Source: Sashavirus 536P12. Taken from it: a stretch of DNA of 55,927 nt. Below, one piece after another: positions 1,000 to 55,927 of this stretch (position 1 is the first letter of the stretch; each line of letters starts with the position of its first letter). The DNA lies in the sequence record OZ035768.1; one strand, given 5' to 3'. The translations under genes and the position numbers were made by a program. The notes below the pieces were generated by a model, which made no database searches, was not told the origin of the DNA, and was given only the letters and a program-made list of their open reading frames with translations.

Positions 1000-1047
1000 A
1001 GGTCATTATAGGTTATTTTACTGTAATCCGTCAAGAATTATTTTAAA
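1000..1047 (-). promoter_or_regulatory. conserved sigma70-type promoter element (P1)
   Basis: plus-strand GTCAAGAATTATTTTAAA at 1030-1047 is the reverse complement of TTTAAAATAATTCTTGAC; -35 TTGACG, ~18-nt spacer, -10 TATAAT (1005-1010, minus strand); AT-rich UP-like segment. Confidence 0.7.
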
Positions 1048-2001: not shown

Positions 2002-2586
2002 TTACTCAGTGAAAAGTTTCACCAACAGTTTGTTAATGTCAGCATCATAAGCATCATAAGCAGCACGAGCAGCATAAGCATCAGCAGCACGAGCAGCACG
2101 AGCAGCACGAGCAGCACGAGCAGCACGAGCAGCATCATAAGCAGCACGAGCAGCATAAGCAGCAGCATAAGCAGCAGCACGAGCAGCACGAGCAGCATAA
2201 GCAGCATAAGCAGCAGCATAAGCAGCACGAGCAGCACGAGCAGCATCAGCAGCATCAGCAGCATCATAAGCAGCACGAGCAGCATAAGCAGCATAAGCAG
2301 CATTCTGTGATGGATTGTTAAGAAAATCCTGAATCAGATTAAAGTCATTCGTATAAGGTCGAATCAATTCGATATTCAACAAAGCACAATCGCAAGCGAA
2401 CCGAACGATTTTTTCTTTCGATAAGATTTTCCCGGCTAACCATAACAAGTCTGAAACGGTGTTTTCACCACCGATTAGACTAATAACTTCAACAGGTTCG
2501 TCAGTGTTGTTAGTCTGAATGATGAAACGTTTAAAACCTTCCTGACATGCGCCAAAATTTTTCAGTTCTTGTTTAGTGATTTTCAT
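2002..2586 (-). CDS. protein with N-terminal globular domain and C-terminal Ala-Ala-(Arg/Tyr/Asp) tripeptide repeat array
   Basis: 194-aa ORF; residues ~95-185 are AAY/AAR/AAD repeats encoded by a near-perfect 9-bp tandem DNA array; GAGGG SD upstream of ATG at 2586; driven by promoter P2. Confidence 0.6.
   Translation of the reverse strand: MKITKQELKNFGACQEGFKRFIIQTNNTDEPVEVISLIGGENTVSDLLWLAGKILSKEKIVRFACDCALLNIELIRPYTNDFNLIQDFLNNPSQNAAYAAYAARAAYDAADAADAARAARAAYAAAYAAYAARAARAAAYAAAYAARAAYDAARAARAARAARAARAADAYAARAAYDAYDADINKLLVKLFTE
2035..2303. repeat. tandem 9-bp (3-codon) repeat array (agcacgagc / agcataagc / agcatcagc), ~30 units
   Basis: directly visible periodicity in sequence 2035-2303; lies inside the 2002..2586 CDS. 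Confidence 0.9.
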
Positions 2587-9189: not shown

Positions 9190-9235
9190 ACTAAAGCATA
9201 ATCGCATGTTTGCAATCTGTCAAGAATTATTTTAA
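9190..9235 (-). promoter_or_regulatory. conserved promoter element (P4)
   Basis: GTCAAGAATTATTTTAA at 9219-9235; minus-strand -35 TTGACA, 17-nt spacer, -10 TATGCT. Confidence 0.65.
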
Positions 9236-11411: not shown

Positions 11412-11459
11412 GTTTGTAGGTTACACGTCCTTGTGTAATCCATCAAGAATTATTTTAAA
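11412..11459 (-). promoter_or_regulatory. conserved promoter element (P5, -35 variant TTGATG)
   Basis: ATCAAGAATTATTTTAAA at 11442-11459. Confidence 0.6.
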
Positions 11460-12554: not shown

Positions 12555-12602
12555 ACAAATGTTAGTGTTACTGCTTGCAATGTGTCAAGAATTATTTTAA
12601 AC
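12555..12602 (-). promoter_or_regulatory. conserved promoter element (P6)
   Basis: GTCAAGAATTATTTTAAAC at 12584-12602; minus-strand -35 TTGACA. Confidence 0.6.
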
Positions 12603-16229: not shown

Positions 16230-16277
16230 GTGATAAAGATACCCCACCGCTTGTAATCCGTCAAGAATTATTTTAAA
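16230..16277 (-). promoter_or_regulatory. conserved promoter element (P7)
   Basis: GTCAAGAATTATTTTAAA at 16260-16277; minus-strand -35 TTGACG, -10 TATCTT. Confidence 0.65.
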
Positions 16278-16560
16278 GGTACAGCTAATACAGAACGTGT
16301 ACTAACTGCACATAGTTCTACATAGGTTTCATGATTTTGAGTTGCAGCTAATACAGAACGTGTATTAGTAGATCATGGGTTCATAGATTTCGTCATGTTT
16401 ATTTTTTAACCAACCTCTCTCTATCTTATTCTTTTTATTATCTTTTTATAATAAACATGATAAACATAGATAAATAGAAGAGTAGTATAAGTAGTATAAG
16501 TTGCTGCAAGTAGGAGAGGTTTAAAAGGTATAGGGAGTCGCATACTTCCCATGAATCTAT
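16278..16560. repeat. iteron-rich AT-rich region A (candidate origin or regulatory hub)
   Basis: two copies of AGCTAATACAGAACGTGTA; a 69-bp block (16382-16450) ~97% identical to 55578-55646; inverted arms CATAGATTTCGTCATG / CATGAATCTATACG flank the AT-rich core. Confidence 0.7.
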
Positions 16561-16603
16561 ACGTAAAATAATTCTTGACGGATTACACCGACACAACTAC
16601 CCT
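16561..16603 (+). promoter_or_regulatory. conserved promoter element (P8, + orientation)
   Basis: AAAATAATTCTTGACGGATTACA with TTGACG at 16575-16580; divergent from P7 across region A. Confidence 0.6.
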
Positions 16604-24479: not shown

Positions 24480-24526
24480 AGTTAAAGATACCTTAACAGG
24501 TGTAATTCGTCAAGAATTATTTTAAA
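24480..24526 (-). promoter_or_regulatory. conserved promoter element (P9)
   Basis: CGTCAAGAATTATTTTAAA at 24508-24526; minus-strand -35 TTGACG, -10 TATCTT. Confidence 0.65.
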
Positions 24527-25013: not shown

Positions 25014-25309
25014 TCGACTTCCTCTTGTGGAACGATAAGACAGACGGGGACGACCTGGACTGGGTTACACAAGGGGCGGCTGCACGTGGTATATCTGTTC
25101 CGAGTGTTGTACAGAAACGTCCTGAATTGCGACCTGATGCTATCTTTTACTGGAATGCTTATCTTGATTTGATAAATAGTGATTGGGTTGCTTGTGAGCG
25201 GTATGCACGGGTGTATAACGTTGATGTACAGTTCCTATGGAAATTATTGGTAGCATTGCGGTCTGCACGTGTTGTCGAGATGAAGAAAAATAAACATAAG
25301 CCCGGTTAG
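24591..25309 (+). CDS. tail assembly chaperone frameshift product (gpGT-like), -1 frameshift at A_AAA_AAC (25004-25010)
   Basis: slippery heptamer A AAA AAC just before the G stop (25011-25013); -1 frame is open from 25004 to 25309 (ORF 25025..25309). Confidence 0.5.
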
Positions 25310-25322
25310 TTCCGGGCTTTTT
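25299..25322. terminator. bidirectional terminator hairpin
   Basis: AAGCCCGGTTAGTTCCGGGCTT followed by a T-run, at the junction of convergent genes. Confidence 0.6.
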
Positions 25323-26217
25323 CATTTATGTAGTCGAGGATTGCGGGAGAATATTTAAACCACTCTGTAGCACCGTCAAAGCCTTTGAGACGCGCATTAA
25401 GTTCACGGAAGACCTTGTGTACCTCTTGTTCCAGTTTGTAAGCATCAGCGCCGTGTGGAAATGGATACGACACGAGTTTAACCACGGGGTGCGGAGTTCG
25501 TCGTTGTAGTTGTCGTAGTCGCTGTTTTAAGTCGTTTGTAACACCGACTTTAAGCAGAGTGGGACACTGTTTATCATCGGTTAACACGTAGAGTGTACCG
25601 GGTTCAAGTGGGTTGAAACCCGCTTGTGAACATTGTGGGCAAGCGTTTAAACAGCAATGGTTATTAGGAGTCTGTTCAAACACCCCATGCTCGGGACATA
25701 TTATTTTTACTCGAGTGAAATTATTAATATACTCCACCAGTGAGTAATCGTATTTGTTTCCGTGAATTTCACGAGCACGATTGACGAATTCTTCAGTAGT
25801 CAAGCGTTGTTGTTCAGACGACTGTTCCCGAGCACATTGTGGGCAACCTCTCCCGTGAACATGGTTGTTAGGAGTCTGTTCAAACACCCCATGCTCTGGG
25901 CATGTTATTTTTACTTTAGTATGAGCGCCTTTATGTTCCACCAACGAGTAATCGTATTTGTGTCCATGGAGTTCACGCGCCCGTGTGATGAATTCTTCTA
26001 CAGGTGATCGTTTTTGTTCTACCGCACACCATGGACACCCATGTTTCAAAGAAACATGATTATTAGGAATCTGTTCAAACACACCATGTTCTGGACAGGT
26101 GACCTTCACAGGAGTACACCAATTCACATACTCCACTAGCGAGTAATCGTATTTGTGCCCGTGAAGTTCACGGGCACGCGTGATAAACTCTTCTGTGGTT
26201 AAACGTTTCCTACTCAT
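25306..26217 (-). CDS. T5orf172 (GIY-YIG-like) domain protein with three N-terminal zinc-ribbon-like repeats (homing-endonuclease-like)
   Basis: 303 aa; three ~65-aa repeats (TTEEF..RARELHGHKYDYSLVEY...CPEHGVFEQ.PNNH...GCPxC); C-terminal LYVLTDD...LLKVGVTNDLKQRL matches the T5orf172 signature. Confidence 0.55.
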   Translation of the reverse strand: MSRKRLTTEEFITRARELHGHKYDYSLVEYVNWCTPVKVTCPEHGVFEQIPNNHVSLKHGCPWCAVEQKRSPVEEFITRARELHGHKYDYSLVEHKGAHTKVKITCPEHGVFEQTPNNHVHGRGCPQCAREQSSEQQRLTTEEFVNRAREIHGNKYDYSLVEYINNFTRVKIICPEHGVFEQTPNNHCCLNACPQCSQAGFNPLEPGTLYVLTDDKQCPTLLKVGVTNDLKQRLRQLQRRTPHPVVKLVSYPFPHGADAYKLEQEVHKVFRELNARLKGFDGATEWFKYSPAILDYINEKARN

Positions 26218-26398: not shown

Positions 26399-26452
26399 TT
26401 TGTAACCCTCCGTTGTTTTGTTGATTGTAGTTTACACACCATTGTGCAATCC

Positions 26453-26470
26453 GTCAAGAATTATTTTAAA
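26453..26470 (-). promoter_or_regulatory. conserved promoter element (P10)
   Basis: GTCAAGAATTATTTTAAA at 26453-26470; minus-strand -35 TTGACG. Confidence 0.65.
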
Positions 26471-39494: not shown

Positions 39495-41351
39495 TTACCG
39501 AAGTGGTGCAACGAGTTTTTCAGCTTCTTTGATGTAAAAATCATAATTGAGCGTTGCCCGGTTAAAACGTTTCATGTCGTTACATTCCGTGGTCAACCAA
39601 CCTTTGCACACGGACATACGGCGCTCAGGCGCGTCAGGGTTCAGTTTCAGTGATTTTGCCAGCGGTGGCATGACTTTTGTCAAAGGTGCACCATCTGTAC
39701 TGACGTAATAACGGGTAATGTTCTGAACCTGTTTATCACCCCATAGTAATTTGCTGTTACGCGGTACTTTCGTCACTAACATGAAATCGTGAATATCTTC
39801 GTGTGATGTTATAAAATCACGAATGTCTTTATTGTGTACCAGTGCTGCTTCAGCCGCTTTTGCGACAACCTGCATGCTGTGGTTTTGATGCCAACCAAGG
39901 TCAACACTGTGACAATAAGCACCTTTACGTTTAACTTTCTTACCACCTTCGTAAACAGCGATGTAGTTGTTTACGTCGCGAATAAACATCACGTCATAAA
40001 TCGCTTCTTCAAGCTGGAGTCTGGTTAATTTTTCCCACGCGTGACGAACCTGTTCTACTTGTCCGGTAAACACTCGTGGTACGTAAACCGTAAGACCATC
40101 TGTGTTAGCCTGGATCATGGACAAACCAGGGATTTTCAGAAGTTCTTCAGCCAACATGCACAAAAGTAATTGTCCGTTAATCGTAATAGCCATTGTATAA
40201 GCAGGATCGTAGAACGGGCTGTATACGTTATTACTGTCACCATACACACCGTTTAACGCCAGTTTTAACATTGCATTTTCTGGTGTACCTTTCGGGTAAC
40301 TGGAACGCATGTCATAAACATTTTTATAAATGGTGCAAAATTGTTTACCCAGATGTGCCGGATAAAGTTCATTACTGATCGCAAGGTTCGGGTAAAAACT
40401 GGCAACGTCCAGATCGATGATCACATAATTTTCAGTGGACCTGATAGTTTGAGACTCAATAGACCCGTGGATACCACCCGTACCAAAATCAAACGAGAAC
40501 CCGTTAATGTCTGCGCTTAAATCTGTAAATACACCTTTTGTTTCAGTGATGACCTGCTGACGTAACCAGTTAAGAACACGATTAAATTCAGGCTGTTCAA
40601 AACGGACATAAGGGAAAATCACGCTGTTTAATGCAATTGATAGTCTGTGCGTCTGTCGTGGTTTTCTACTACCCGGTTCGAAACATTGAATACCTGATTT
40701 TTCAAGTTCCATGATGAAATAGTCTTTACCGATTTTCGTGTCGTTATGGTTCATGAAATTACGACCGTATTTAGCAGAAAGTTCACGACGAAAATCTATC
40801 AGCTTTTTACTATGTTTATAAAACATCAAAGTCGCTTTCAAATCGTGTATCAGATATTGACGAAGCGTATCAATTTGAGAATCGGTTAAATAAGTCCCTG
40901 GGATAAACGGAAGGTCTTCAATGTTTTCCATTCTCATATTGAATTCAAGTGTTTTCAGACTTGTTCGTTTTGCCTGATTGTCGAAATGATGAATTTTATA
41001 CAAATCAAGCTGGGGAACTATCCAGTCTTTTTCCCACACCATATGAGCAAAACGATTTTCATCACCAGCGTTAATTATTGAATCACCTTTTTTATAAATG
41101 TCTGCGTTGGTGATATACATGATGTTGTTCAAAATAGAATGCTGAACAGGATAGTCGTAACCCAGATTGTTATAACCAATTTCTTCAGCACGATGTTCAC
41201 GCAAATATTCTGTGAACAGGTAAAAAGCCTGACGATCATCGCGACGATGTGAAATCTCAAAAATATAAGGCGTTTCAGTTAACGCGTGAATAGCACCGAA
41301 CAGAAAAACATTAGGATAGTTTTCAATATCGTGAACGTAAGCATCTGACAT
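39495..41351 (-). CDS. DNA polymerase (compact family-B-like with 3'-5' exonuclease motifs)
   Basis: 618 aa; Exo I-like HDIEN; motif A-like DLDVASFYPNL (DxxSLYPS); motif B-like KLALNGVYG (Kx3NSxYG); motif C-like ANTDGL (DTDS variant). Confidence 0.65.
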   Translation of the reverse strand: MSDAYVHDIENYPNVFLFGAIHALTETPYIFEISHRRDDRQAFYLFTEYLREHRAEEIGYNNLGYDYPVQHSILNNIMYITNADIYKKGDSIINAGDENRFAHMVWEKDWIVPQLDLYKIHHFDNQAKRTSLKTLEFNMRMENIEDLPFIPGTYLTDSQIDTLRQYLIHDLKATLMFYKHSKKLIDFRRELSAKYGRNFMNHNDTKIGKDYFIMELEKSGIQCFEPGSRKPRQTHRLSIALNSVIFPYVRFEQPEFNRVLNWLRQQVITETKGVFTDLSADINGFSFDFGTGGIHGSIESQTIRSTENYVIIDLDVASFYPNLAISNELYPAHLGKQFCTIYKNVYDMRSSYPKGTPENAMLKLALNGVYGDSNNVYSPFYDPAYTMAITINGQLLLCMLAEELLKIPGLSMIQANTDGLTVYVPRVFTGQVEQVRHAWEKLTRLQLEEAIYDVMFIRDVNNYIAVYEGGKKVKRKGAYCHSVDLGWHQNHSMQVVAKAAEAALVHNKDIRDFITSHEDIHDFMLVTKVPRNSKLLWGDKQVQNITRYYVSTDGAPLTKVMPPLAKSLKLNPDAPERRMSVCKGWLTTECNDMKRFNRATLNYDFYIKEAEKLVAPLR

Positions 41352-41431
41352 AATAAAACCCTGATAAGTAAATGGGGCACTATGGCCCCATGTCTGTTTA
41401 AAGCGGTATGTCGTCCCAGTTCCAGTAACTA

Positions 41432-42235
41432 TCAGTAACCGTTACCGTTGAGAAAATTCGGGGCCGGGGTGGTCATTACCATATAACCGTTAGCGATCAA
41501 TTGTTCATCGTTCCAACCTTGCGCAATAAACTGTTCGTAAGTAGCACCACCTGCTTTTTCAGTCATTACCTTCACAGGTGCTGCCGCTGGTGTAGGCGCT
41601 GCTACAGGTGCTGCCGCTGGTGTAGGCGCTGGTGTTACGCCGATCGGACGTGCACCTTCAGGCATTGCAGGAGCAGCACCGAACACAGAGGCAGGAGCCG
41701 GACCAGAAATAATTTCTTCACCTGCATAAAGCAATTGCGCCATTTCCATGTTGATATATACACCAGCCTGATTACCTGTACGACCGTTTGCAACAGATGA
41801 CCCGCTGATACGGTAGTAATAACCTTTTTTCGCCAGATTTTTATCAATAACTGGCTGGTACGCTGCGTTATAAACAGGACACGCGTCAATAGCCACGTTG
41901 CGTGAGAAACCAATTACCCAGTGACCAGCATAACCAGTTTTACTCGCATGTTTCGGATCGTCACCGTTAATAATTTTCCATGCGAAAGTGGGTTGTTGTG
42001 GTTCGCCGTTCACATAGTGTGAGTTAGCCGCTCGCATGATGGCCTGGAACACCGCACCAAGTTCACCTTGTTCTTCCCACCAGTTCGCAGCTGTTTTAGG
42101 AAATGCCAGACCAACCCACCAGTTATGTTTTTCAGGTGCTAACGGTTTATTTTCGTGGTCATGAGTGTTGATATCGAAAAAAGAACCGCCAACCAGACGA
42201 CCAACCGGAGTTACAAAAGATTCTTTCTGTGCCAT
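41432..42235 (-). CDS. ssDNA-binding protein candidate (gp2.5 / DUF2815-like)
   Basis: 267 aa; N-terminal FVTPVGRLVGGSFFD...KHNWWVGLAFPK pattern, Pro/Ala-rich linker, aromatic C-terminus; sits in the replication module. Confidence 0.35.
   Translation of the reverse strand: MAQKESFVTPVGRLVGGSFFDINTHDHENKPLAPEKHNWWVGLAFPKTAANWWEEQGELGAVFQAIMRAANSHYVNGEPQQPTFAWKIINGDDPKHASKTGYAGHWVIGFSRNVAIDACPVYNAAYQPVIDKNLAKKGYYYRISGSSVANGRTGNQAGVYINMEMAQLLYAGEEIISGPAPASVFGAAPAMPEGARPIGVTPAPTPAAAPVAAPTPAAAPVKVMTEKAGGATYEQFIAQGWNDEQLIANGYMVMTTPAPNFLNGNGY
41575..41636. repeat. 30-bp tandem repeat x2 inside CDS (encodes PAPTPAAAPV linker)
   Basis: CAGGTGCTGCCGCTGGTGTAGGCGCTG(C/G)T repeated directly. Confidence 0.8.
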
Positions 42236-42250
42236 GTTATTAACCTTCTT

Positions 42251-43396
42251 TTAAAGTGGACGTGCGCCAGTCGGCATCGTCACGGGTTTATTAAAAACAG
42301 ATTCTGCCAGTGTGCTGTGACCTTTACGCGGGTCACTGTCAGGTACTAAAACTGGCTGACCTTCTGGTTTTGTCGTACACATGTCAACAAGTGCCGGAGG
42401 CAGTGATTTTTCCAGTGTTGACAACGGTTTTAATTTACGTTCGTACAATGTTTCAGGGTTTACACCAAACATGGGTGCAGCACCGATCAGTTTTCCTTCG
42501 TCCGTAAGCTGACGTCGGGTTTGCTTTGTTGCAAGTTTAAAACCCGGTAAAGCCTTACCCATGCGAACAAAATGTAACCCCTGAGTATGTAACGCTGTTT
42601 TTGCTTCAGAAGAACGTGTATACAGTTCTTCAAGAAGTGCCAGACGACGCGCTACTTCTTCTGGCGTAAGTGATGGTGGTGCATCAAGAACAGTAGCCAA
42701 TTCTAAAACCCTCTCATACATTGCCGGACACATACCACGCGCCGGACAGTAATGACAATGACTACCAACATTTAACGGTGCGTCTGGTTTATGTGCTTCG
42801 TTAAACCCGTGTTTAAATCGTTCAGCCCATTCCATCAATGTTGCCCGGTTAAACTCCCATCGTCTTACAGGTCCGAGTGGGTGATAAGCCCGTGGCTGAA
42901 CAATTGTGAACACAACGCGCTTAACAGTGTCGATGCAACGTTGGTCCAGTGCATAATAGACCCCCTGTGAGTTATCAACTGCGTCAACTGCAACATGACC
43001 GTATTTATAATCCCATACGTAAAGCGTATCAGTATTAAAGTCATACCAGCGATAATCACAGGTTCCGTACTGACCGGGTAACAACCAGTCAATGTGAATG
43101 CGAACTTCTGAAAACAGCGGATCAAGTTTCGCACCAACTGAAAGAACATCTGCTATAAAGTCACCCGCGTAAATATGCATGTCTTCAGTAACCTGAACAC
43201 CGTTAGGAGCAAGACACGGCATTAATGGCGGTTTACCTTTAATCTTCTGTTCTAACACCCAGTGTCCGGCTGTACCTTCTTCAGCACTGGGTGATGATGG
43301 TTCTACATAATCAATCCGCTGTGACAGTTGAACGCTACCCGGACAAGCTAACCAACGTTTTGATCCACTGGCACTAAAGGTAGCGTGACTGGTCAT
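42251..43396 (-). CDS. PD-(D/E)xK nuclease with Cys cluster (Cas4 / DUF2800-like exonuclease)
   Basis: 381 aa; N-terminal SASGSKRWLACPGS, DYKYG (D/ExK), and CHYCPARGMC cysteine cluster. Confidence 0.55.
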   Translation of the reverse strand: MTSHATFSASGSKRWLACPGSVQLSQRIDYVEPSSPSAEEGTAGHWVLEQKIKGKPPLMPCLAPNGVQVTEDMHIYAGDFIADVLSVGAKLDPLFSEVRIHIDWLLPGQYGTCDYRWYDFNTDTLYVWDYKYGHVAVDAVDNSQGVYYALDQRCIDTVKRVVFTIVQPRAYHPLGPVRRWEFNRATLMEWAERFKHGFNEAHKPDAPLNVGSHCHYCPARGMCPAMYERVLELATVLDAPPSLTPEEVARRLALLEELYTRSSEAKTALHTQGLHFVRMGKALPGFKLATKQTRRQLTDEGKLIGAAPMFGVNPETLYERKLKPLSTLEKSLPPALVDMCTTKPEGQPVLVPDSDPRKGHSTLAESVFNKPVTMPTGARPL

Positions 43397-44166
43397 CAGA
43401 ATGCCCCACCCATTTGTTTAACAGACTCAGCCTGACCGACAATATTTTCAGCATCAGCAGGGGCAGCGTTAATACGTTCAATCAGTTCGATGATAGATTT
43501 CAGTTTTACTGGGTCGTCAATCTGCATCACGTTCTGAGTTTCATACAGTCCCATGATTCGCTGACTTAATGGCGCAGCACGGTCACCCGTAATTTGTCCA
43601 AACATCTGCATCAGTGCTGACTGAAGAACCTGTGTGTTATAAACTTTAGCCGGATCCGTGGTTACATGTTGCTCGATTGGTGCAGCCGGTGCTGCTGGTA
43701 CAACTGGAGCTACCGGAGCTACCGGAGCGGCAGGAACCGCTGGAGCAGGATCAACAGGTGCTACATAACCCGGTGCAAGTTCTGCAGGTCCGGTATAACG
43801 CCCTGCTTCAACTGCTTCAGCGATAAGTTCACGTTTAACACCGTCAACAAACGCTTCATCCAGTTTTTTCTTTTGACGCCACAGACCATCACCTTTGTTC
43901 AGGGATTTACTGTCAGTGTGGATACGCGGATCATGACGCAAACCCCATTTGTCGAACTCTTCAGTGCTGGTTTCATTATCGTCAACATCTTCAGTTGGTG
44001 CAGATACAACAGGCAATGATTCAGCAACGACAGTCACAGTTTCTTTAGTGATACCATCACCCTGAGCAGTCATGAGTGGTGCAGCACCAGTCGCAATAGC
44101 ATTTGCCAGATTGTTGATCGCAGTTTCCAGACCCGGAGCAGTTACAAGTAATTTAACTTCGAACAT
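43396..44166 (-). CDS. hypothetical protein with Pro/Ala-rich linker
   Basis: 256 aa; first gene of the minus-strand replication operon; PAPAVPAAPVAPVAPVVPAAPAAP linker. Confidence 0.5.
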   Translation of the reverse strand: MFEVKLLVTAPGLETAINNLANAIATGAAPLMTAQGDGITKETVTVVAESLPVVSAPTEDVDDNETSTEEFDKWGLRHDPRIHTDSKSLNKGDGLWRQKKKLDEAFVDGVKRELIAEAVEAGRYTGPAELAPGYVAPVDPAPAVPAAPVAPVAPVVPAAPAAPIEQHVTTDPAKVYNTQVLQSALMQMFGQITGDRAAPLSQRIMGLYETQNVMQIDDPVKLKSIIELIERINAAPADAENIVGQAESVKQMGGAF

Positions 44167-44192: not shown

Positions 44193-44240
44193 TCGCTAAC
44201 TTTAAAAGGTGTTGTGTAATCTGTCAAGAATTATTTTACA
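44193..44240 (-). promoter_or_regulatory. conserved promoter element (P11)
   Basis: GTCAAGAATTATTTTACA at 44223-44240; minus-strand -35 TTGACA, -10 TAAAGT. Confidence 0.6.
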
Positions 44241-44255: not shown

Positions 44256-44303
44256 TGCAGATGTTAGAGGAATGAGTTGCAATACGTCAAGAACTATTTT
44301 AAA
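44256..44303 (-). promoter_or_regulatory. conserved promoter element (P12, tandem with P11)
   Basis: GTCAAGAACTATTTTAAA at 44286-44303; minus-strand -35 TTGACG. Confidence 0.55.
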
Positions 44304-44336: not shown

Positions 44337-45998
44337 ATGAAAGCTCGTTATTATCAGACTGAAGCTATCAATAACGTATGTCAGGCATGGTCAAGCGGTG
44401 CTGACGACGTGATTCTTGTGCTTCCCACGGGGGCAGGAAAAACGTTCTGTATGTCTGAACTGGTAAAAACAAGAGACGGTGTAAAAGTCATTCAGGCGCA
44501 CCGTAAGGAACTGGTTAGCCAAATCGCAATGGCTGTTGCTCGTCAGGGGTTAGCACACAGATTTATAGCGCAAAAAGATACTGTTAAGTTTGCAACTAAT
44601 CAGCAGATGAAAACGCTTGGTTACAGTACCTATTCCCCCGGCGCTGACATCGTTATTACCAGTTCACAAACGTTAAGAACAAAACAGTACGAACGGTGGT
44701 ACAACGATGTGTCTCTTGTGTTCAGCGACGAAGCGCATCACCTGGTGCGTGGCACACAGTGGGGAGACTGCCGGGAAAAATTCCCTAACGCTAAAGGTCT
44801 GGGTGTTACAGCTACACCGATCCGTGCTGACGGTAAAGGCTTGGGTCGTCATGCGTCAGGTTACGCAGATCAGATGATCATTGGTCCGTCAATGCGTGAG
44901 TTAATCAGTCAACAACACTTGGCTGATTATCGTCTGATTATGGCTGAAACAGACCTGGAATTAACTGCAGAAATGATTTCCCATACTACGGGTGATTACA
45001 AACCCTCTGCGTTAAAAAAAGCGATGGAAGATTCAAACATCGTTGGTGATACCGTCAGTACGTGGAAAACATATGCAGATGGTTTACTCACTGTTGTGTT
45101 TACGTGTGATGTGGATTCTGCTGAAGCACTTGCAAAAGAATTTCGCGATGCTGGCATTCCTGCAGAGGCGATCAGCTCACGAAACAGCAATCAGGAACGA
45201 GCGGATATTCTGGAACGTTTTGAACGACGTAAAACACTCGTGCTATGTAACAACGATTTATTCGGTGAAGGGTATGATTGCCCGGCGATGGAATGTGCTG
45301 TAATGGACCGTCCAACAGAATCTTACTCTTTGTTTGTACAACAGATGGGTCGTCCGTTGCGTTTCAAACCGGGTAAAAAAGCACTGATTATTGATAAAGT
45401 AGGTAATGTTCGTCGATTTCTGGCCCGTGGTTTTCCACTTCCTGATCAGCACTACAACTGGTCTTTAGATGACCGTGACCGTCGTTCATCTAACAGCAGC
45501 GGGAACAGTAACACAACATGCACAAACAAGGGTGATCCTGATAATGGTATTCCACCGTGTCTAAAGCCTTATCCGTCTGGTCTGCCATGCTGCCCATATT
45601 GTGGTCATATTCCTGAAAAAGCCGAACGCTCAGGCCCGGATCGTGTAGAAGGTAATTTACGTGAACTGACACCTGAAGAACTGGAAGAATTACGCCGGGC
45701 AGTTGTGATAATCGACCGTGACCCTGTTGCGGTAAAAGAACAAATGTTGAACGCTGGTGCACCCCCTGTTGCAGCTTACAGTGCAATGAAAAACATTCAG
45801 GCAATGAATGATGCACAGCGTAAGTTACGTAGCATGATTACCACATGGGCGGGTATTCAGCGTGATAAAGGTATACCCGTTGATGACGCTTACAAGATGT
45901 TTTACAGGGTGTTTGGTGTTGATGTACTTAGCGCTCAGGGGTTACGTACTCGTGAAGCTAATGAACTTGCCGCAAGGGTTGCAAGTTCATTAATCTGA
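44337..45998 (+). CDS. SF2 DEAD/DEAH-box DNA helicase
   Basis: 553 aa; Walker A LPTGAGKT, motif II FSDEAHH, C-terminal Cys-rich CPYCGH. Confidence 0.7.
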   Translation: MKARYYQTEAINNVCQAWSSGADDVILVLPTGAGKTFCMSELVKTRDGVKVIQAHRKELVSQIAMAVARQGLAHRFIAQKDTVKFATNQQMKTLGYSTYSPGADIVITSSQTLRTKQYERWYNDVSLVFSDEAHHLVRGTQWGDCREKFPNAKGLGVTATPIRADGKGLGRHASGYADQMIIGPSMRELISQQHLADYRLIMAETDLELTAEMISHTTGDYKPSALKKAMEDSNIVGDTVSTWKTYADGLLTVVFTCDVDSAEALAKEFRDAGIPAEAISSRNSNQERADILERFERRKTLVLCNNDLFGEGYDCPAMECAVMDRPTESYSLFVQQMGRPLRFKPGKKALIIDKVGNVRRFLARGFPLPDQHYNWSLDDRDRRSSNSSGNSNTTCTNKGDPDNGIPPCLKPYPSGLPCCPYCGHIPEKAERSGPDRVEGNLRELTPEELEELRRAVVIIDRDPVAVKEQMLNAGAPPVAAYSAMKNIQAMNDAQRKLRSMITTWAGIQRDKGIPVDDAYKMFYRVFGVDVLSAQGLRTREANELAARVASSLI

Positions 45999-46038: not shown

Positions 46039-46545
46039 ATGCGTGATTTGATGGTTGACATTGAAACGTGTGGTACTAAACCGGGTTGTGTAGTGCTGTC
46101 AATTGGCGCTGTTTACTTTGACCGTCAGGGTAACATTGGTGAAACGTTTTACGCATCAATGGGTTTTAATGCGCTCGCTTATGGTCACACAGACCCTGAC
46201 ACTATGAAGTGGTGGTCGCAGCAGTCAGAACAAGCACAAAAAGATGCTTTTGGTGGTACTGCCGATCCTGTTCAGGTTGCTAAAGATTTTGCCAAATTCA
46301 TCTGGCACGATGCTAAACCGTGGGGCAATGGTTCCACATTCGATATCACTATTCTGGAAGCATGGTTTAATGCGGTTGGTGTTCGTTGCCCGTGGAAGTT
46401 CTGGAACGTCCGTGATGTTCGTACCGCTGTTGATTTGCTGGGTATTAACCCGAAAGAATTTACCCGTGACGGTACTTACCACAATGCGTTAGACGACTGT
46501 TTACACCAGATTAAATATCTTACTAGCGGGACTAAAACATTATGA
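46039..46545 (+). CDS. DEDDh 3'-5' exonuclease (DnaQ-like)
   Basis: 168 aa; Exo I DIETCG, C-terminal H..LDDC motif. Confidence 0.65.
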   Translation: MRDLMVDIETCGTKPGCVVLSIGAVYFDRQGNIGETFYASMGFNALAYGHTDPDTMKWWSQQSEQAQKDAFGGTADPVQVAKDFAKFIWHDAKPWGNGSTFDITILEAWFNAVGVRCPWKFWNVRDVRTAVDLLGINPKEFTRDGTYHNALDDCLHQIKYLTSGTKTL

Positions 46546-47308: not shown

Positions 47309-49663
47309 ATGAAAGGGTTACTGAACCGTAAACAGTGGGTCATGTGGCGACTTGAGACAGTCGCCGATCGTCCAAAACCAACGAAAGTACCATACAGCCC
47401 GGTACACGGTTATAAAGCCAGTACCACTAACCCTAACGACTGGTCTGACTATCACACCGCGTTAGGTATGGCGCAAATGTACGGTATGTCTGGTGTTGGT
47501 TTTGTATTCACAGAAAATGACCCTTATTTCTTTATCGATATTGATAACTGTCTGGTAGATCAGGCAACAGCTACGTGGTCACCACTGGCGCATGAATTCG
47601 TAAACCGTTTTCCAAATGCTTACACTGAAGTCAGTCAGTCAGGAACAGGTTTGCATATCATCTGTGCTTATACCAGCATACCGGAAGGTTTTAACAGTCT
47701 GAACGACCAGAAAACCGGGCTGGAAATGTACTGGCGTGATCGTTTCGTCGCGATGACGCTCACGGGTAATGGTGATGTTGATATTGATTATACCCAGGGC
47801 ATTCATGATTCTATTGCCCGGTATGGTCGTATCCGTTCAGACCGTTCCGCACGCTGGACAACAGCACCTTGTGATGACTGGTCAGGTCCGGCAGACGATG
47901 ATGAACTGATTAAAATGGCGTTAAATTCGTCCAGTGCTGCTTCAGTATTTGGCAATAAAGCGTCATTTGCAGATCTGTGGAATGCAAACGTTGAACGTCT
48001 GTCTGTGTCATATCCTAGCGACCAGGGAAAAGACTACAATGCATCTGCCGCTGATGCTGCCCTGTGCTCACACCTTGCGTTCTGGACCGGGAAAGATTGC
48101 GAACGTATTGAACGATTGTTTAACCGTTCCGGGCTGGTTCGTGGTAAATGGACAGATCGTCAGGATTACCGTGAAAACACAATTCTGGGCGCTGTGGAAC
48201 GTTGTGATACGGTTTATCGTAGTCAACCGACGCTGACACCAGAACTGATGAAAGCAGTCACACCAGCGCCTACCATCGTTCCTAACGGTGGAACACCTGC
48301 GTACATGAGTGTGAAACCCGGTGAAGGTGCATATGGTTCAAACCATACTGTTAATGCATCCACTTTCGTTAATAACTATTATCCGAACAACACATTGATT
48401 TTCGTCCAGCAACAGCCGTACCGGTTCAACGGTCGCGTGTGGGAACGTGTGAGTGAAGATGAACTGAAACATCAGATATCTATGGCAATGCTCGCCAGCG
48501 AACCAAAAGCTGACGTAATTAACGGTACGTACAAGGTTTTGTCGTATTTATTCACACGCGCTGATCGTGAGCTTGGAACATGGCCAGGTGTTGATGTGTC
48601 ACACTACATTGTATGTCAGAACGGGATACTGGATGTACACACGGGTAAATGTGATGCACATAACCCGGATTTCTTTACGACCAGTATTTTACCGTATAGC
48701 TACGATCCGTTTGCCCGTGCGCCAGCATTTGAACAGTTTTTAAATACAACTCTGGAAGGTGATCAGGAACGTATTGCACTGTTGCAGGAATGGCTGGGTT
48801 ACATGCTTGTCAACTCATATGACTATCAGAAAGCGATGCTGTTGATTGGTGCACCACGTTCCGGTAAAGGTACGATTGGTCGCATCATTCAGGCACTGGT
48901 AGGTGATGAAGCGTATGCAGGGATCACACTAGAGGGTTTAGCTAGTGATGCGGTACTTGAAACTGTGTTGGATAAATCTGTGCTGTTTATTGGTGATGCT
49001 CACAGTGTGTCCGGGCCTGATCGCAACCGAATTCTGGACCGTTTCAAATCTATTACAGGTTGTGATGCGATTCCGGTTAATCGTAAATATAAAGGTGCAT
49101 GGAACGGTCGTTTACCGGGACGTATGACACTGGCTGCTAACAACATTCCGGCATTTGCTGATGATTCAGGTGCAATGGCTAACCGTTTGCTGATCCTGCC
49201 ATTCAACATTTCGTTCCTGGGTCGTGAAGATACCACTCTGGAAGCACGACTGATGAAAGAACTACCGGGGATCTGTAACTGGGCGATTGAAGGTTTACAA
49301 CGGTTACGTGCTAACGGACGATTTTCTGAACCAAAAGCAAGTCTGGAAGAACGTCAGGAAATTATGGATCAACAATCACCACTTAGAAGTTTTATCAGAG
49401 ATTGTTGCGAATTGGTATCTGATGGTGAGGTGCACACTGAAGAACTCTATGGTCGTTATCGTCTCTGGAAAACACAGGAAGGTGGTCCAGCAATGACTAA
49501 AACTGCATTTAGTCGGGCATTTAAATCCACCCTTCGTGGTAAAGTGAAAAAAGACGTCGTTAATATAAATAACGTTCGACTAAACGGTTTCAGGGGTATT
49601 CGTCTTCTCCCTTTTCAGTCAACAGCTAATGTAGTGCCTTTCCCACCTGCGAGTAACGGTTAG
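47309..49663 (+). CDS. primase-helicase (prim-pol N-terminal domain plus D5/SF3-type P-loop NTPase)
   Basis: 784 aa; prim-pol motifs FIDIDN and GLHIICAY; Walker A GAPRSGKGT. Confidence 0.75.
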   Translation: MKGLLNRKQWVMWRLETVADRPKPTKVPYSPVHGYKASTTNPNDWSDYHTALGMAQMYGMSGVGFVFTENDPYFFIDIDNCLVDQATATWSPLAHEFVNRFPNAYTEVSQSGTGLHIICAYTSIPEGFNSLNDQKTGLEMYWRDRFVAMTLTGNGDVDIDYTQGIHDSIARYGRIRSDRSARWTTAPCDDWSGPADDDELIKMALNSSSAASVFGNKASFADLWNANVERLSVSYPSDQGKDYNASAADAALCSHLAFWTGKDCERIERLFNRSGLVRGKWTDRQDYRENTILGAVERCDTVYRSQPTLTPELMKAVTPAPTIVPNGGTPAYMSVKPGEGAYGSNHTVNASTFVNNYYPNNTLIFVQQQPYRFNGRVWERVSEDELKHQISMAMLASEPKADVINGTYKVLSYLFTRADRELGTWPGVDVSHYIVCQNGILDVHTGKCDAHNPDFFTTSILPYSYDPFARAPAFEQFLNTTLEGDQERIALLQEWLGYMLVNSYDYQKAMLLIGAPRSGKGTIGRIIQALVGDEAYAGITLEGLASDAVLETVLDKSVLFIGDAHSVSGPDRNRILDRFKSITGCDAIPVNRKYKGAWNGRLPGRMTLAANNIPAFADDSGAMANRLLILPFNISFLGREDTTLEARLMKELPGICNWAIEGLQRLRANGRFSEPKASLEERQEIMDQQSPLRSFIRDCCELVSDGEVHTEELYGRYRLWKTQEGGPAMTKTAFSRAFKSTLRGKVKKDVVNINNVRLNGFRGIRLLPFQSTANVVPFPPASNG

Positions 49664-49681: not shown

Positions 49682-49723
49682 TAAAATAATTCTTGACGAA
49701 TTACAGAGGTGTGCGCTATAGTC
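49682..49723 (+). promoter_or_regulatory. conserved promoter element (P13, + orientation)
   Basis: TAAAATAATTCTTGACGAATTACA; -35 TTGACG 49693-49698, 18-nt spacer, -10 TATAGT 49717-49722. Confidence 0.7.
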
Positions 49724-51063: not shown

Positions 51064-51455
51064 TAATCGTCGTCACAGGTGGTCGTGACTTCAACGACAG
51101 AGTAGCAGTATTTTCCGCGTTAGGACTACTTCACAAACAATTCCCCATTACCGAACTAATTGAAGGTGGTGCGTCAGGTGTTGATAACCTGTGTAAGCAA
51201 TGGGCGCAGTTACACAGTATTCCTGTGCGTAGTTGCCCGGCAGCGTGGGACGATCTGACTGTACCTGGTGCGGTTGTAAAACAGGGCAAGCACGGGCCTT
51301 ATAACGCTGTTGCAGGTCATCAACGTAATCAGGCGATGTTAGAGGGTGAGCCACGCCCTACATATGGTGTTGTGTTCCCCGGTGGGCGTGGTACTGCTGA
51401 TATGCATCGTCGCATGTTGAAAGCTGGTTTAACTGTGTGGGTTCCATATCCTTAA
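51060..51455 (+). CDS. DUF2493 / SLOG-family protein (predicted nucleotide-binding)
   Basis: 131 aa; MIIVVTGGRDF...GGASGVDNL...GHQRNQAM...VVFPGGRGT pattern; stop overlaps promoter P14. Confidence 0.5.
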   Translation: MIIVVTGGRDFNDRVAVFSALGLLHKQFPITELIEGGASGVDNLCKQWAQLHSIPVRSCPAAWDDLTVPGAVVKQGKHGPYNAVAGHQRNQAMLEGEPRPTYGVVFPGGRGTADMHRRMLKAGLTVWVPYP

Positions 51456-51493
51456 AATAATTCTTGACAGATTACCAACCCTCCCCGATAATT
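51452..51493 (+). promoter_or_regulatory. conserved promoter element (P14, + orientation)
   Basis: TTAAAATAATTCTTGACAGATTACCA; -35 TTGACA 51464-51469, 17-nt spacer, -10 GATAAT 51487-51492. Confidence 0.7.
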
Positions 51494-55380: not shown

Positions 55381-55927
55381 TAACGCGCGTTAGCAGCTAG
55401 TGCAAGACGTGCTTTATATGTTAGTGTGTTTACACCTAATGCATGTTGTGCATTAGCAGTTAGTGCAAGATGCACGTTGTGTATTAGCTGTTAGTGCACG
55501 TTGTGTATCTATGTTGGTACAGCTAATGCACGTTGTGAATTATATAATGCATGTTGTGCATTAAAGTTATACTTAACATAGATTTCGTCATGTTTACTTT
55601 TTAACCAACCCCTCTCTATCTTATTCTTTTTATTATCTTTTTATAGATAACATAGAAAACATAGATATAAAGAAGAAGTAGTATAGAAAGATAGAGATAG
55701 TGCATATAGTGTATTAGCTGTAAATAGAGCTAAAATAAAAGTCTGGGAGATACCTATTGTAATCTATGTTTTTATGCAAGTCTTTGAATTGATTGTGATT
55801 ATGGGCTACGTATTTATGTATGTAATCGAAAATTAGTGCATGTTGTGCACTAACTGTAAAATTAATACTAACGTTGTATTAGCTGTAAAACAGGGCGTGT
55901 GGACAACCCGTGGGTATCTGTGGGAAA
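55381..55927. repeat. iteron / operator-rich AT-rich region B (candidate origin, pac-proximal or regulatory region)
   Basis: multiple copies of TGCACGTTGTG / TATTAGCTG motifs; palindrome TTAGTGCA-N5-TGCACTAA (~55840-55860); 69-bp block 55578-55646 ~97% identical to 16382-16450; AT-rich core. Confidence 0.7.

What the first reader, a model, noticed from the sequence alone, without database searches (positions are those of the whole stretch)
39495..41351. Compact (618 aa) family-B-like DNA polymerase with a DTDS-to-NTDG motif C
Exo I (HDIEN), motif A (DLDVASFYPNL) and motif B (KLALNGVYG) resemble family-B polymerases, but the protein is far shorter than T4/RB69-type enzymes and motif C reads ANTDG. 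It sits in a module with a Cas4-like nuclease and a gp2.5-like SSB candidate. The family assignment rests on short motifs read by eye and needs confirmation.
Basis: partly seen in the sequence, partly recalled or inferred. Interest (0 to 1): 0.45.

Follow-up and report, generated by a model that had tools for sequence, protein, structure and literature searches.

The report
Known NTDG-type phage PolB polymerase
This gene encodes the DNA-copying enzyme of a Sasha-like E. coli/Salmonella phage; it belongs to an already published group of compact family B phage polymerases whose hallmark is the NTDG active-site motif, so it is ordinary.

Summary
The 618-aa ORF at 39495-41351 is real but lies on the minus strand. 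Sequence-profile and fold comparisons both assign it to family B DNA polymerases, not family A and not the phi29-type protein-primed enzymes. The window is a Sashavirus genome. The same protein is annotated "DNA polymerase" in GenBank relatives, up to 99.5% aa identity. Sashavirus is listed among PolB-encoding phages in Yutin et al. 2024.

The NTDG motif C is not a private mutation. It is invariant in 151/151 diverse representatives and persists in crAss-like, Pseudomonas, Xanthomonas, Rhodobacter and Leuconostoc phage homologues; Enterococcus phages read NTDA. Kazlauskas and Venclovas (2011) published it as the characteristic motif of the "PolIIphages" subgroup of RNA-primed PolBs. The 2020 PolB survey notes divergent motif C and KxY in the crAss-like group.

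Both metal-binding aspartates (D315, D418) and the full proofreading exonuclease motif set are conserved, so the enzyme is predicted active. It is short mainly because the PolB N-terminal domain segment is missing and the fingers are short.

The neighbouring genes are confirmed: a gp2.5/Enc34-type SSB, a DUF2800 Cas4-like nuclease, a DEAD-box helicase and an NrS-1-like primase-polymerase/helicase. There are no inverted terminal repeats and no room for the TPR1/TPR2 insertions. Verdict: already known, low interest.

The parts
39495..41351 (-). Family B DNA polymerase gene (618 aa), NTDG clade
40812..41351 (-). N-terminal 3'-5' proofreading exonuclease domain (about residues 1-180): ExoI D8/E10 (41319-41330), ExoII N61/D66 (41154-41177), ExoIII Y166/D170 (40842-40856)
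40383..40415 (-). Polymerase motif A, DLDVASFYPNL; D315 is the metal-ligand Asp and Y320 the steric-gate Tyr
   Evidence: D315 and Y320 are 151/151. The motif aligns with YLDFRSLYPS of archaeal PolB.
40239..40265 (-). Polymerase motif B, KLALNGVYG (Kx3NSxYG type, fingers helix)
   Evidence: K363 151/151, N367 150/151, G371 151/151. Aligned with KILANSFYG.
40095..40109 (-). Polymerase motif C, ANTDG; N416 replaces the first Asp of DTD and D418 is the metal-ligand Asp
   Evidence: N416, T417, D418 and G419 are each 151/151 and are kept in distant phage and crAss-like homologues. Published as a subgroup signature (PMC3201878).
39963..39974 (-). VNNY block at the KxY position (Lys replaced by Asn, Tyr kept)
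   Evidence: N461 149/151, N462 126/151, Y463 150/151. Aligns with KKKY of archaeal PolB. Conserved in distant homologues.
41366..41393 (-). GC-rich hairpin followed by T's (ATGGGGCcatagtGCCCCATTT) between the SSB and polymerase genes; terminator-like attenuator
   Evidence: Sequence read. The equivalent site is annotated 'terminator' in phage Sasha.
41432..42235 (-). gp2.5-like / Enc34-type ssDNA-binding and annealing protein
   Evidence: phrog_7011 at E 9.5e-93; PF10991 at E 5.4e-6
42251..43396 (-). DUF2800 / PD-(D/E)XK (Cas4-like) exonuclease
   Evidence: PF10926 at E 5.4e-57 and PF12705 at E 6.6e-7; phrog_69 'exonuclease'
43396..44166 (-). First gene of the polymerase operon, function unknown (phrog_27827)
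   Evidence: Searches give no informative match. A positional counterpart exists in phage PTXU04.
44337..45998 (+). Superfamily 2 (ResIII/DEAD) helicase, divergently transcribed
   Evidence: PF04851 at E 1.5e-22 and PF00271 at E 1e-10
47309..49663 (+). NrS-1-like primase-polymerase fused to a D5_N/SF3 helicase; the likely primer source
   Evidence: PF22763, PF08706 and PF19263; PDB 7ola 'DNA primase' at E 1.3e-34

Best explanation
The gene encodes the replicative, proofreading family B DNA polymerase of a Sashavirus. It belongs to the phage PolB clade defined by an NTDG motif C, called 'PolIIphages' in 2011 and overlapping the 'crAss-like' PolB group of 2020.

Shown here: it has the PolB fold and all six canonical regions (ExoI-III, motifs A-C). 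The two carboxylates that bind the catalytic metals in RB69 gp43 (D411 and D623) correspond to D315 and D418, both invariant. The first Asp of 'DTD' is an invariant Asn, and the Lys of KxY is Asn throughout the clade.

Inferred: the enzyme extends 3'-OH primers laid down by the neighbouring NrS-1-like primase-polymerase/helicase, on template coated by the gp2.5-like SSB. It proofreads with its N-terminal DEDDy exonuclease. In this phage it probably works without a sliding clamp, since none was found in the window.

It is compact because the first N-terminal-domain segment of canonical PolBs is absent: ExoI starts at residue 8, against about 141 in KOD-type enzymes. The fingers are also short, with 48 residues from motif A to motif B against 83 in KOD.
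For: - **Family match:** PHROG 'DNA polymerase' at E 9e-214.
- **Profile against PDB:** only family B polymerases are hit, including KOD/9°N, Pol alpha, RB69, Pol II and Pol epsilon; best E 2.3e-7.
- **Model:** AF2 pLDDT 96.3, pTM 0.91.
- **Foldseek on PDB:** the top 50 are all PolB, E about 5e-15.
- **Conservation:** catalytic residues are invariant or nearly so in 151 sequences of 42-56% identity, and motifs persist in 8 distant phage homologues including Crassvirales.
- **Family size:** 4839 representative clusters and 968 phage records.
- **Annotation:** 'DNA polymerase' in Sasha, PDP46, PJ16 and AVIO78A. It is the only DNA polymerase annotated in PDP46.
- **Literature:** NTDG is the signature of the PolIIphages subgroup of RNA-primed PolBs (PMC3201878). 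The crAss-like group diverges in motif C and KxY (PMC7544198). Sashavirus is in a PolB-encoding clade where PolB and PolA swap in situ (PMC11348598). RB69 catalytic metals are bound by D411 and D623, the second Asp of DTDS (PMC3564110).
- **Replication module:**. The same module occurs in the distant phage PTXU04.
Against: - No Pfam model matches, even at E<=1. NCBIfam gives only a sub-threshold Pol II hit at E 0.015. Single-sequence similarity to solved PolBs is marginal at E 0.013.
- In my limited searches I found no biochemical or structural study of any member of this clade, so activity, processivity, primer type and the role of N416 are all inferred.
- The NrS-1-like primase-polymerase is itself a DNA polymerase in its founding member (from memory, Zhu et al. 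2017). The division of labour between the two enzymes is therefore untested.
Confidence: 0.9

Rival explanations
1. It is a protein-primed PolB of the phi29/PRD1 type that starts replication from a terminal protein at the genome ends.
Against: - The phi29 match covers only 299 residues, against 452 for Pol II.
- Motif A to B is 48 residues and motif B to C is 55, the same as KOD. That leaves no room for the roughly 100-residue TPR1 or roughly 30-residue TPR2 insertions (phi29 domain limits from memory).
- The profile search finds no phi29-type chain.
- The window has no inverted repeats of 40 nt or more.
- Terminase and portal genes are present, as is a primase-polymerase/helicase.
- The literature places the NTDG subgroup in the RNA-primed cluster.
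Confidence: 0.03
2. It is a catalytically impaired PolB, an exonuclease-only or structural protein, because motif C lost its first Asp and KxY lost its Lys. Bulk DNA synthesis would then be done by the NrS-1-like primase-polymerase or by the host replisome.
For: D to N at motif C and K to N at KxY. Inactivated PolB paralogues are known elsewhere, such as the Pol epsilon C-terminal half and archaeal PolB2 (PMC7544198, PMC8764526). The neighbouring primase-polymerase has a polymerase-competent relative, NrS-1.
Against: - Both metal-ligand aspartates, the steric-gate Tyr, the motif B Lys/Asn/Tyr/Gly and finger residues R349 and K354 are invariant or nearly so.
- In RB69 the first Asp of DTDS is not one of the two metal ligands.
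- The substitutions are fixed across thousands of clusters. That pattern indicates a functional variant, not decay.
- The gene swaps in situ with PolA in related phages, which implies an equivalent replicase function.
Confidence: 0.04
3. It is a family A (Pol I/T7-like) polymerase misread as family B.
Against: The family A matches cover only 175-200 residues, which is the shared DEDD exonuclease fold. Motif B has PolB spacing (Kx3N-G-x-YG) rather than Kx3NFGx2YG, and motif C is xTDG rather than HDE. The sequence profile hits no family A chain.
Confidence: 0.01

Closest known systems
'PolIIphages' subgroup of RNA-primed viral PolBs (Kazlauskas and Venclovas 2011, PMC3201878)
   Same: It carries the defining NTDG motif in the polymerase active site. 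It is a phage-encoded PolB falling in the RNA-primed cluster. E. coli Pol II gives the longest structural alignment, 452 residues, and is the only NCBIfam hit, though sub-threshold.
   Different: None found. I could not read the 2011 member list because no supplement is held. Membership therefore rests on the signature and on homology, not on an explicit listing of Sashavirus.
'crAss-like' PolB group within the EpsilonN-like clade (Kazlauskas et al. 2020, PMC7544198)
   Different: It comes from a 56-kb enterobacterial siphovirus, not from Crassvirales. I did not build a tree, so its placement inside that named group, or beside it, is not established.
Archaeal/E. coli Pol II-type PolB (KOD, 9°N, Pfu; E. 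coli Pol II)
   Same: Same fold and the same order of ExoI-III and motifs A-C. The same two catalytic Asp residues align, D404 and D542 in 9°N. The spacing from motif B to motif C is identical at 55 residues.
   Different: About 155 residues shorter: it has no N-terminal-domain segment before ExoI, and it has shorter fingers and thumb. Motif C reads NTDG instead of DTDG/DTDS, and NNY replaces KxY. Sequence identity is only 12-15%.
phi29-type protein-primed PolB
   Different: No TPR1 or TPR2 insertions, no inverted terminal repeats, no identified terminal protein, and a primase-polymerase is encoded nearby.

Membership tests
Family B DNA polymerase | 3'-5' exonuclease motifs ExoI (DxE), ExoII (Nx2-3[F/Y]D) and ExoIII (Yx3D) N-terminal to the polymerase domain | tested here: met
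   D8/E10, N61/D66 and Y166/D170 are conserved in 147-149 of 151 sequences and in distant homologues.
Family B DNA polymerase | Motif A, DxxSLYPS, with a catalytic Asp | tested here: met
   D315-V-A-S-F-Y-P-N. D315 and Y320 are 151/151. It aligns with D404 of archaeal PolB.
Family B DNA polymerase | Motif B, Kx3NSxYG, in the fingers | tested here: met
   K363-LAL-N367-G-V-Y370-G371 has the exact PolB spacing. K363 and G371 are 151/151 and N367 is 150/151.
Family B DNA polymerase | Motif C with the catalytic (second) Asp of DTD | tested here: met
   T417-D418-G419 are invariant, and D418 aligns with D542 of 9°N. The first Asp is Asn; see the canonical-consensus row.
Family B DNA polymerase | PolB three-dimensional fold over the exonuclease, palm, fingers and thumb | tested here: met
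Family B DNA polymerase | Match to the curated Pfam PolB models (DNA_pol_B, DNA_pol_B_exo1 or DNA_pol_B_2) | tested here: not met
   No Pfam hit at E<=1, and precomputed Pfam is '-' for all close homologues. This is a sensitivity gap in the models. A family profile does reach solved PolBs at E 2.3e-7.
Canonical PolB active-site consensus (DTDS/DTDG plus KxY) | First Asp of DTD and the Lys of KxY | tested here: not met
   N416 is 151/151 and V-N-N-Y replaces K-x-Y. This is a known clade-level deviation, not grounds for exclusion from family B.
NTDG clade ('PolIIphages' 2011 / crAss-like group 2020) | Characteristic NTDG motif in the polymerase active site | tested here: met
   definition quoted from PMC3201878.
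NTDG clade ('PolIIphages' 2011 / crAss-like group 2020) | Full-length homology to Crassvirales PolB, with a divergent KxY | tested here: met
   tblastn to cr60_1 at E 3e-60, and to cr124_1 and cr110_1. VNNY/INDY is shared. BFVD neighbours support it.
NTDG clade ('PolIIphages' 2011 / crAss-like group 2020) | Phylogenetic placement inside the named group | not tested
   No tree was built. The 2011 supplement is not held. The 2020 supplement lists related phage PolBs only as 'PolBmain'.
Protein-primed PolB (phi29/PRD1/adenovirus type) | TPR1 insertion between motifs A and B, and TPR2 between motifs B and C | tested here: not met
   Motif A to B is 48 residues and motif B to C is 55, the same as KOD. 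No phi29-type chain appears in the profile search.
Protein-primed PolB (phi29/PRD1/adenovirus type) | Inverted terminal repeats at the genome ends | tested here: not met
   No inverted repeats of 40 nt or more in the whole 55,927-base window. Caveat: the true physical ends of the genome are not known from the sequence.
Protein-primed PolB (phi29/PRD1/adenovirus type) | Terminal protein covalently linked to the DNA 5' ends | not testable with these tools
   This needs virion DNA biochemistry. No neighbouring ORF matched a terminal protein family.
Family A DNA polymerase | PolA motifs (DYSQIELR; Rx3Kx3NFGx2YG; HDE) and the PolA fingers/thumb | tested here: not met
   The motifs are absent. Structural matches to T7, Klenow and other family A enzymes cover only the roughly 190-residue exonuclease fold. 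There are no sequence-profile hits.

The most novel reading that the evidence does not exclude
The clade-invariant pair of substitutions, Asn for the first motif-C Asp and Asn-Asn-Tyr for KxY, may mark a mechanistically distinct PolB active site. Possibilities include altered use of an auxiliary metal or a different grip on the primer terminus. Such a site might be adapted to clamp-independent extension of DNA (not RNA) primers made by the NrS-1-like primase-polymerase/helicase. That would give a replisome with no need for RNA-primer removal. No member of this very large clade (more than 4800 clusters at 50% identity) has a solved structure, and I found no biochemistry for it.
Probability: 0.12. 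Interest if true: 0.45.

Novelty: already known. Interest (0 to 1): 0.12.

Why it matters
It matters little as a discovery. The gene is already annotated as a DNA polymerase in public Sashavirus genomes. The PolB assignment of this phage group is published, and so is the NTDG signature. The residual value is practical. This is a very abundant, compact, proofreading phage PolB clade that Pfam does not cover and that has no experimental structure. An N416D (or reciprocal) mutational study, or a structure, would show what the Asn does. The clade could also supply small mesophilic proofreading polymerases for biotechnology.

Tried and rejected
- **Pfam and NCBIfam scans:** nothing usable.
- **First homologue search:** it returned only sequences about 99% identical, useless for conservation. 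I replaced it with the representatives search.
- **Protein-primed hypothesis:** rejected on motif spacing, absence of inverted terminal repeats, and the presence of a primase-polymerase.
- **Family A hypothesis:** rejected.
- **Enterococcus phage IME199 family B polymerase paper (PMC10590003):** I considered it as biochemical evidence for this clade. Its residue numbering (D30, E32, D112, D251, D596, Y639) does not fit the Efquatrovirus homologue PMBT2, and the paper describes a phi29-like enzyme from a genome with terminal inverted repeats. I did not use it.
- **Supplements of the 2011 and 2020 PolB surveys:** I looked for an explicit Sashavirus listing. The first is not held. The second gives only the coarse 'PolBmain' label for related phage PolBs such as 9NA.
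- **The unknown operon-leading protein at 43396-44166:** no match in Pfam, NCBIfam or PDB.

Full report
**Observation.** An ATG-initiated ORF of 618 codons occupies exactly 39495..41351, but on the minus strand. The plus-strand reading of those coordinates is full of stops.

| Motif | Sequence | Residues | DNA coordinates |
|---|---|---|---|
| ExoI | HDIEN (D8, E10) | 7-11 | 41319-41330 (DIEN, residues 8-11) |
| ExoII | GYNNLGYD | 59-66 | 41154-41177 |
| ExoIII | YLIHD | 166-170 | 40842-40856 |
| Motif A | DLDVASFYPNL | 313-323 | 40383-40415 |
| Motif B | KLALNGVYG | 363-371 | 40239-40265 |
| Motif C | ANTDG | 415-419 | 40095-40109 |
| KxY position | VNNY | 460-463 | 39963-39974 |

ExoII, ExoIII and VNNY were not in the original finding. 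A GC-rich hairpin followed by T's lies between the upstream SSB gene and the polymerase start. The equivalent site is annotated as a terminator in phage Sasha.

**What the window is.** The polymerase gene is 96-97% identical in DNA to Escherichia and Salmonella phages of the genus Sashavirus (AVIO78A, KarinMuster_Bas82, PJ16, Sasha, Sergei, Solent, PDP46). In all annotated ones it is called 'DNA polymerase'. The protein is 99.5% identical to that of phage PDP46. PDP46's full annotation contains a single DNA polymerase.

**Family assignment.**
- Pfam gives no hit even at E<=1. NCBIfam gives only a sub-threshold Pol II match.
- PHROGs places the protein in phrog_1252 'DNA polymerase' at E 9e-214.
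- Single-sequence phmmer against PDB sequences gives marginal hits (E 0.013-0.24), exclusively to archaeal PolBs and E. coli Pol II. Motifs A, B and C align in register: D315 with D404, K363 with K487, N416 with D540, D418 with D542.
- A profile built from the query plus 60 representatives at 42-54% identity (alignment A1) hits 81 PDB sequences at E<=1. All 60 shown are family B polymerases (KOD/9°N/Tgo/Pfu, Pol alpha, ASFV, RB69, Pol II, Pol epsilon), best E 2.3e-7. None is family A or phi29-type.
- AlphaFold2 with that alignment gives a very confident model, mean pLDDT 96.3 and pTM 0.91.
- Foldseek against the PDB returns only PolBs in the top 50, E about 5e-15 and probability 1.0.
- Family A enzymes (T7, Klenow and others) align over only 175-200 residues, which is the shared DEDD exonuclease fold.

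**The NTDG motif is a clade signature.** An exhaustive HMMER search of 1.84 billion representatives at 50% identity finds 4839 clusters at E<=1e-3 and 2049 at E<=1e-30. tblastn finds homologues in 968 phage records. I aligned the query with the best 150 representatives (42-56% identity, lengths 486-950, median 659).
- N416, T417, D418 and G419 are each 151/151.
- D315, Y320, K363 and G371 are 151/151; N367 is 150/151.
- The exonuclease carboxylates and Y166 are 147-149/151.
- At the KxY position the clade reads V-N-N-Y: N461 149/151, N462 126/151, Y463 150/151.

Eight much more distant phage homologues at 24-29% identity all keep NTDG and V/I-N-x-Y; Enterococcus reads NTDA. They are two Crassvirales phages, Pseudomonas NP1 and PS9N, Xanthomonas FoX4, Rhodobacter RcPacific, Leuconostoc P974 and Enterococcus PMBT2. 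BFVD structural neighbours are the same set of phage and crAss-like polymerases, TM 0.66-0.93.

**What is already published.**
- Kazlauskas et al. [quoted passage not shown]
- Yutin et al. 2024 list Sashavirus, with Nonanavirus and Gorganvirus, in a clade of PolB-encoding phages. Within it, a PolB-to-PolA swap occurred in situ in near-identical Vibrio phages (PMC11348598).

The gene, its family and its odd motif C are therefore all in the literature.

**How it most likely works.** In RB69 gp43 the two catalytic metal ions are bound by D411 (motif A) and D623, the second Asp of DTDS (PMC3564110). The equivalents here, D315 and D418, are invariant. So are the steric-gate Tyr (Y320), the motif B Lys/Asn/Tyr/Gly, and finger residues R349 and K354. 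The Asn replaces the Asp that is not one of those two metal ligands. I therefore infer a fully active polymerase with an active DEDDy proofreading exonuclease.

The compactness has four components. They are measured against 9°N/KOD from the alignments, plus the well-known D141/E143 ExoI position, which I cite from memory.

| Region | This protein compared with KOD |
|---|---|
| N-terminal segment before ExoI (ExoI at residue 8 vs about 141) | about 133 residues missing |
| Fingers, motif A to motif B (48 vs 83) | 35 shorter |
| After motif C | about 32 shorter |
| Exonuclease-to-palm connector | 44 longer |

The model begins directly with the beta-beta-beta-alpha exonuclease core at residue 4.

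**Surrounding genes.** The polymerase is the fourth gene of a minus-strand operon:
- 43396-44166: unknown function.
- 42251-43396: DUF2800/PD-(D/E)XK Cas4-like exonuclease.
- 41432-42235: gp2.5-like/Enc34 SSB.
- 39495-41351: the polymerase.

Divergently transcribed on the plus strand are:
- 44337-45998: an SF2 helicase.
- 46039-46545: an Rv2179c-like 3'-5' exonuclease.
- 47309-49663: a 784-aa NrS-1-like primase-polymerase fused to a D5_N/SF3 helicase (PDB 7ola E 1.3e-34).

The same arrangement recurs in the distant phage PTXU04, whose polymerase is 41.7% identical. In Pseudomonas phage NP1 the homologous polymerase sits next to a 'putative replicative clamp'. No clamp was seen in this window. 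I infer primer synthesis by the primase-polymerase/helicase, SSB-coated template, and extension with proofreading by this PolB.

**Protein priming excluded.**
- Motif A to B (48 residues) and motif B to C (55 residues) leave no room for the TPR1 and TPR2 insertions.
- The profile search does not find phi29-type chains.
- The window has no inverted repeats of 40 nt or more.
- The phage has a terminase and a portal.
- The published classification puts the NTDG subgroup among RNA-primed PolBs.

**Limits.** In a limited literature search I found no biochemical or structural study of any member of this clade. The Enterococcus phage IME199 family B polymerase paper (PMC10590003) concerns a phi29-like enzyme. 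Its residue numbering does not fit the Efquatrovirus homologue of this clade. Activity, primer type, processivity and the function of N416 and N461/N462 are inferred, not shown. I did not build a phylogeny. Placement in 'PolIIphages'/'crAss-like' rests on the signature motifs and on full-length homology.

**Verdict.** Interest is low (0.12). The only open angle is the untested mechanistic meaning of the clade-invariant Asn substitutions.

Noticed in passing
window 1023-1045, 2834-2856, 9212-9234, 11435-11457, 12577-12599, 16253-16275, 24502-24524, 26446-26468, 44216-44238, 44279-44301 (+); 16564-16586, 49682-49704, 51453-51475 (-): A 23-nt motif, GTAATCNGTCAAGAATTATTTTA, occurs 13 times at up to 3 mismatches, against 0 expected from shuffles. 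Several copies lie 35-95 nt upstream of gene starts, including terminase 2922, portal 9306, ORF 12632, tape measure 26515 and helicase 44337. It is probably a phage-specific promoter or regulator binding site. Two copies sit in the divergent region between the polymerase operon and the helicase gene, oriented towards the helicase.
   Followed up: partly
window 16382-16481 and 55577-55676: A 100-nt AT-rich direct repeat, 90% identical, with copies about 39 kb apart. Its function is unknown. It could be a regulatory or origin-like region, or a recombination scar.
   Followed up: no
window 41432-42235 (-): The gp2.5-like SSB carries a Pro/Ala-rich low-complexity linker (PAPTPAAAPVAAPTPAAAPV). Its length varies between relatives: 267 aa here, 303 aa in Sasha and 331 aa in PDP46. 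Sasha annotates a tandem-repeat region there. The first protein of the operon (43396-44166) has a similar PAPA-type linker.
   Followed up: no
window 43396-44166 (-): A conserved 256-aa protein heads the polymerase operon and has no match in Pfam, NCBIfam or PDB (phrog_27827, unknown function). PDP46 labels it 'helicase' without visible support. A positional counterpart exists in phage PTXU04. It is a candidate uncharacterised replication accessory factor.
   Followed up: partly
window 47309-49663 (+): The gene annotated 'DNA primase' is an NrS-1-like primase-polymerase (AEP) with the NrS-1 helix-bundle domain, fused to D5_N and an SF3 helicase (PDB 7ola, E 1.3e-34). The founding member is a self-priming DNA polymerase (from memory). 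Primers in this phage may therefore be DNA rather than RNA.
   Followed up: partly
window 2023-2328 (within ORF 2002..2586, -) and 25646-26207 (within ORF 25306..26217, -): There is a tandem array with a 9-nt period, about 19 overlapping copies. There are also three copies of a roughly 163-nt repeat, 72-75% identical and spaced 195-204 nt apart. Both lie inside coding regions. They are probably a repetitive peptide and repeated domains respectively.
   Followed up: no
loci (for example Klebsiella phages FZ14 and KpTRp1, Rheinheimera Barba phages, Vibrio phages): In many homologues the polymerase matches in two or three pieces. The break falls around query residues 265-280, and proteins there are up to 950 aa. 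In Klebsiella phage FZ14 the gene is annotated as two 'DNA polymerase' CDSs with a hypothetical protein between them. This is a recurrent insertion site in the clade, possibly for an intein, an intron with a homing endonuclease, or an extra domain.
   Followed up: no
L010 (Pseudomonas phage NP1) 5801-6754: The NP1 homologue of this polymerase lies immediately downstream of a gene annotated 'putative replicative clamp', and next to a queuosine/7-deazaguanine biosynthesis cluster. At least some NTDG-clade polymerases may therefore be clamp-dependent.
   Followed up: no
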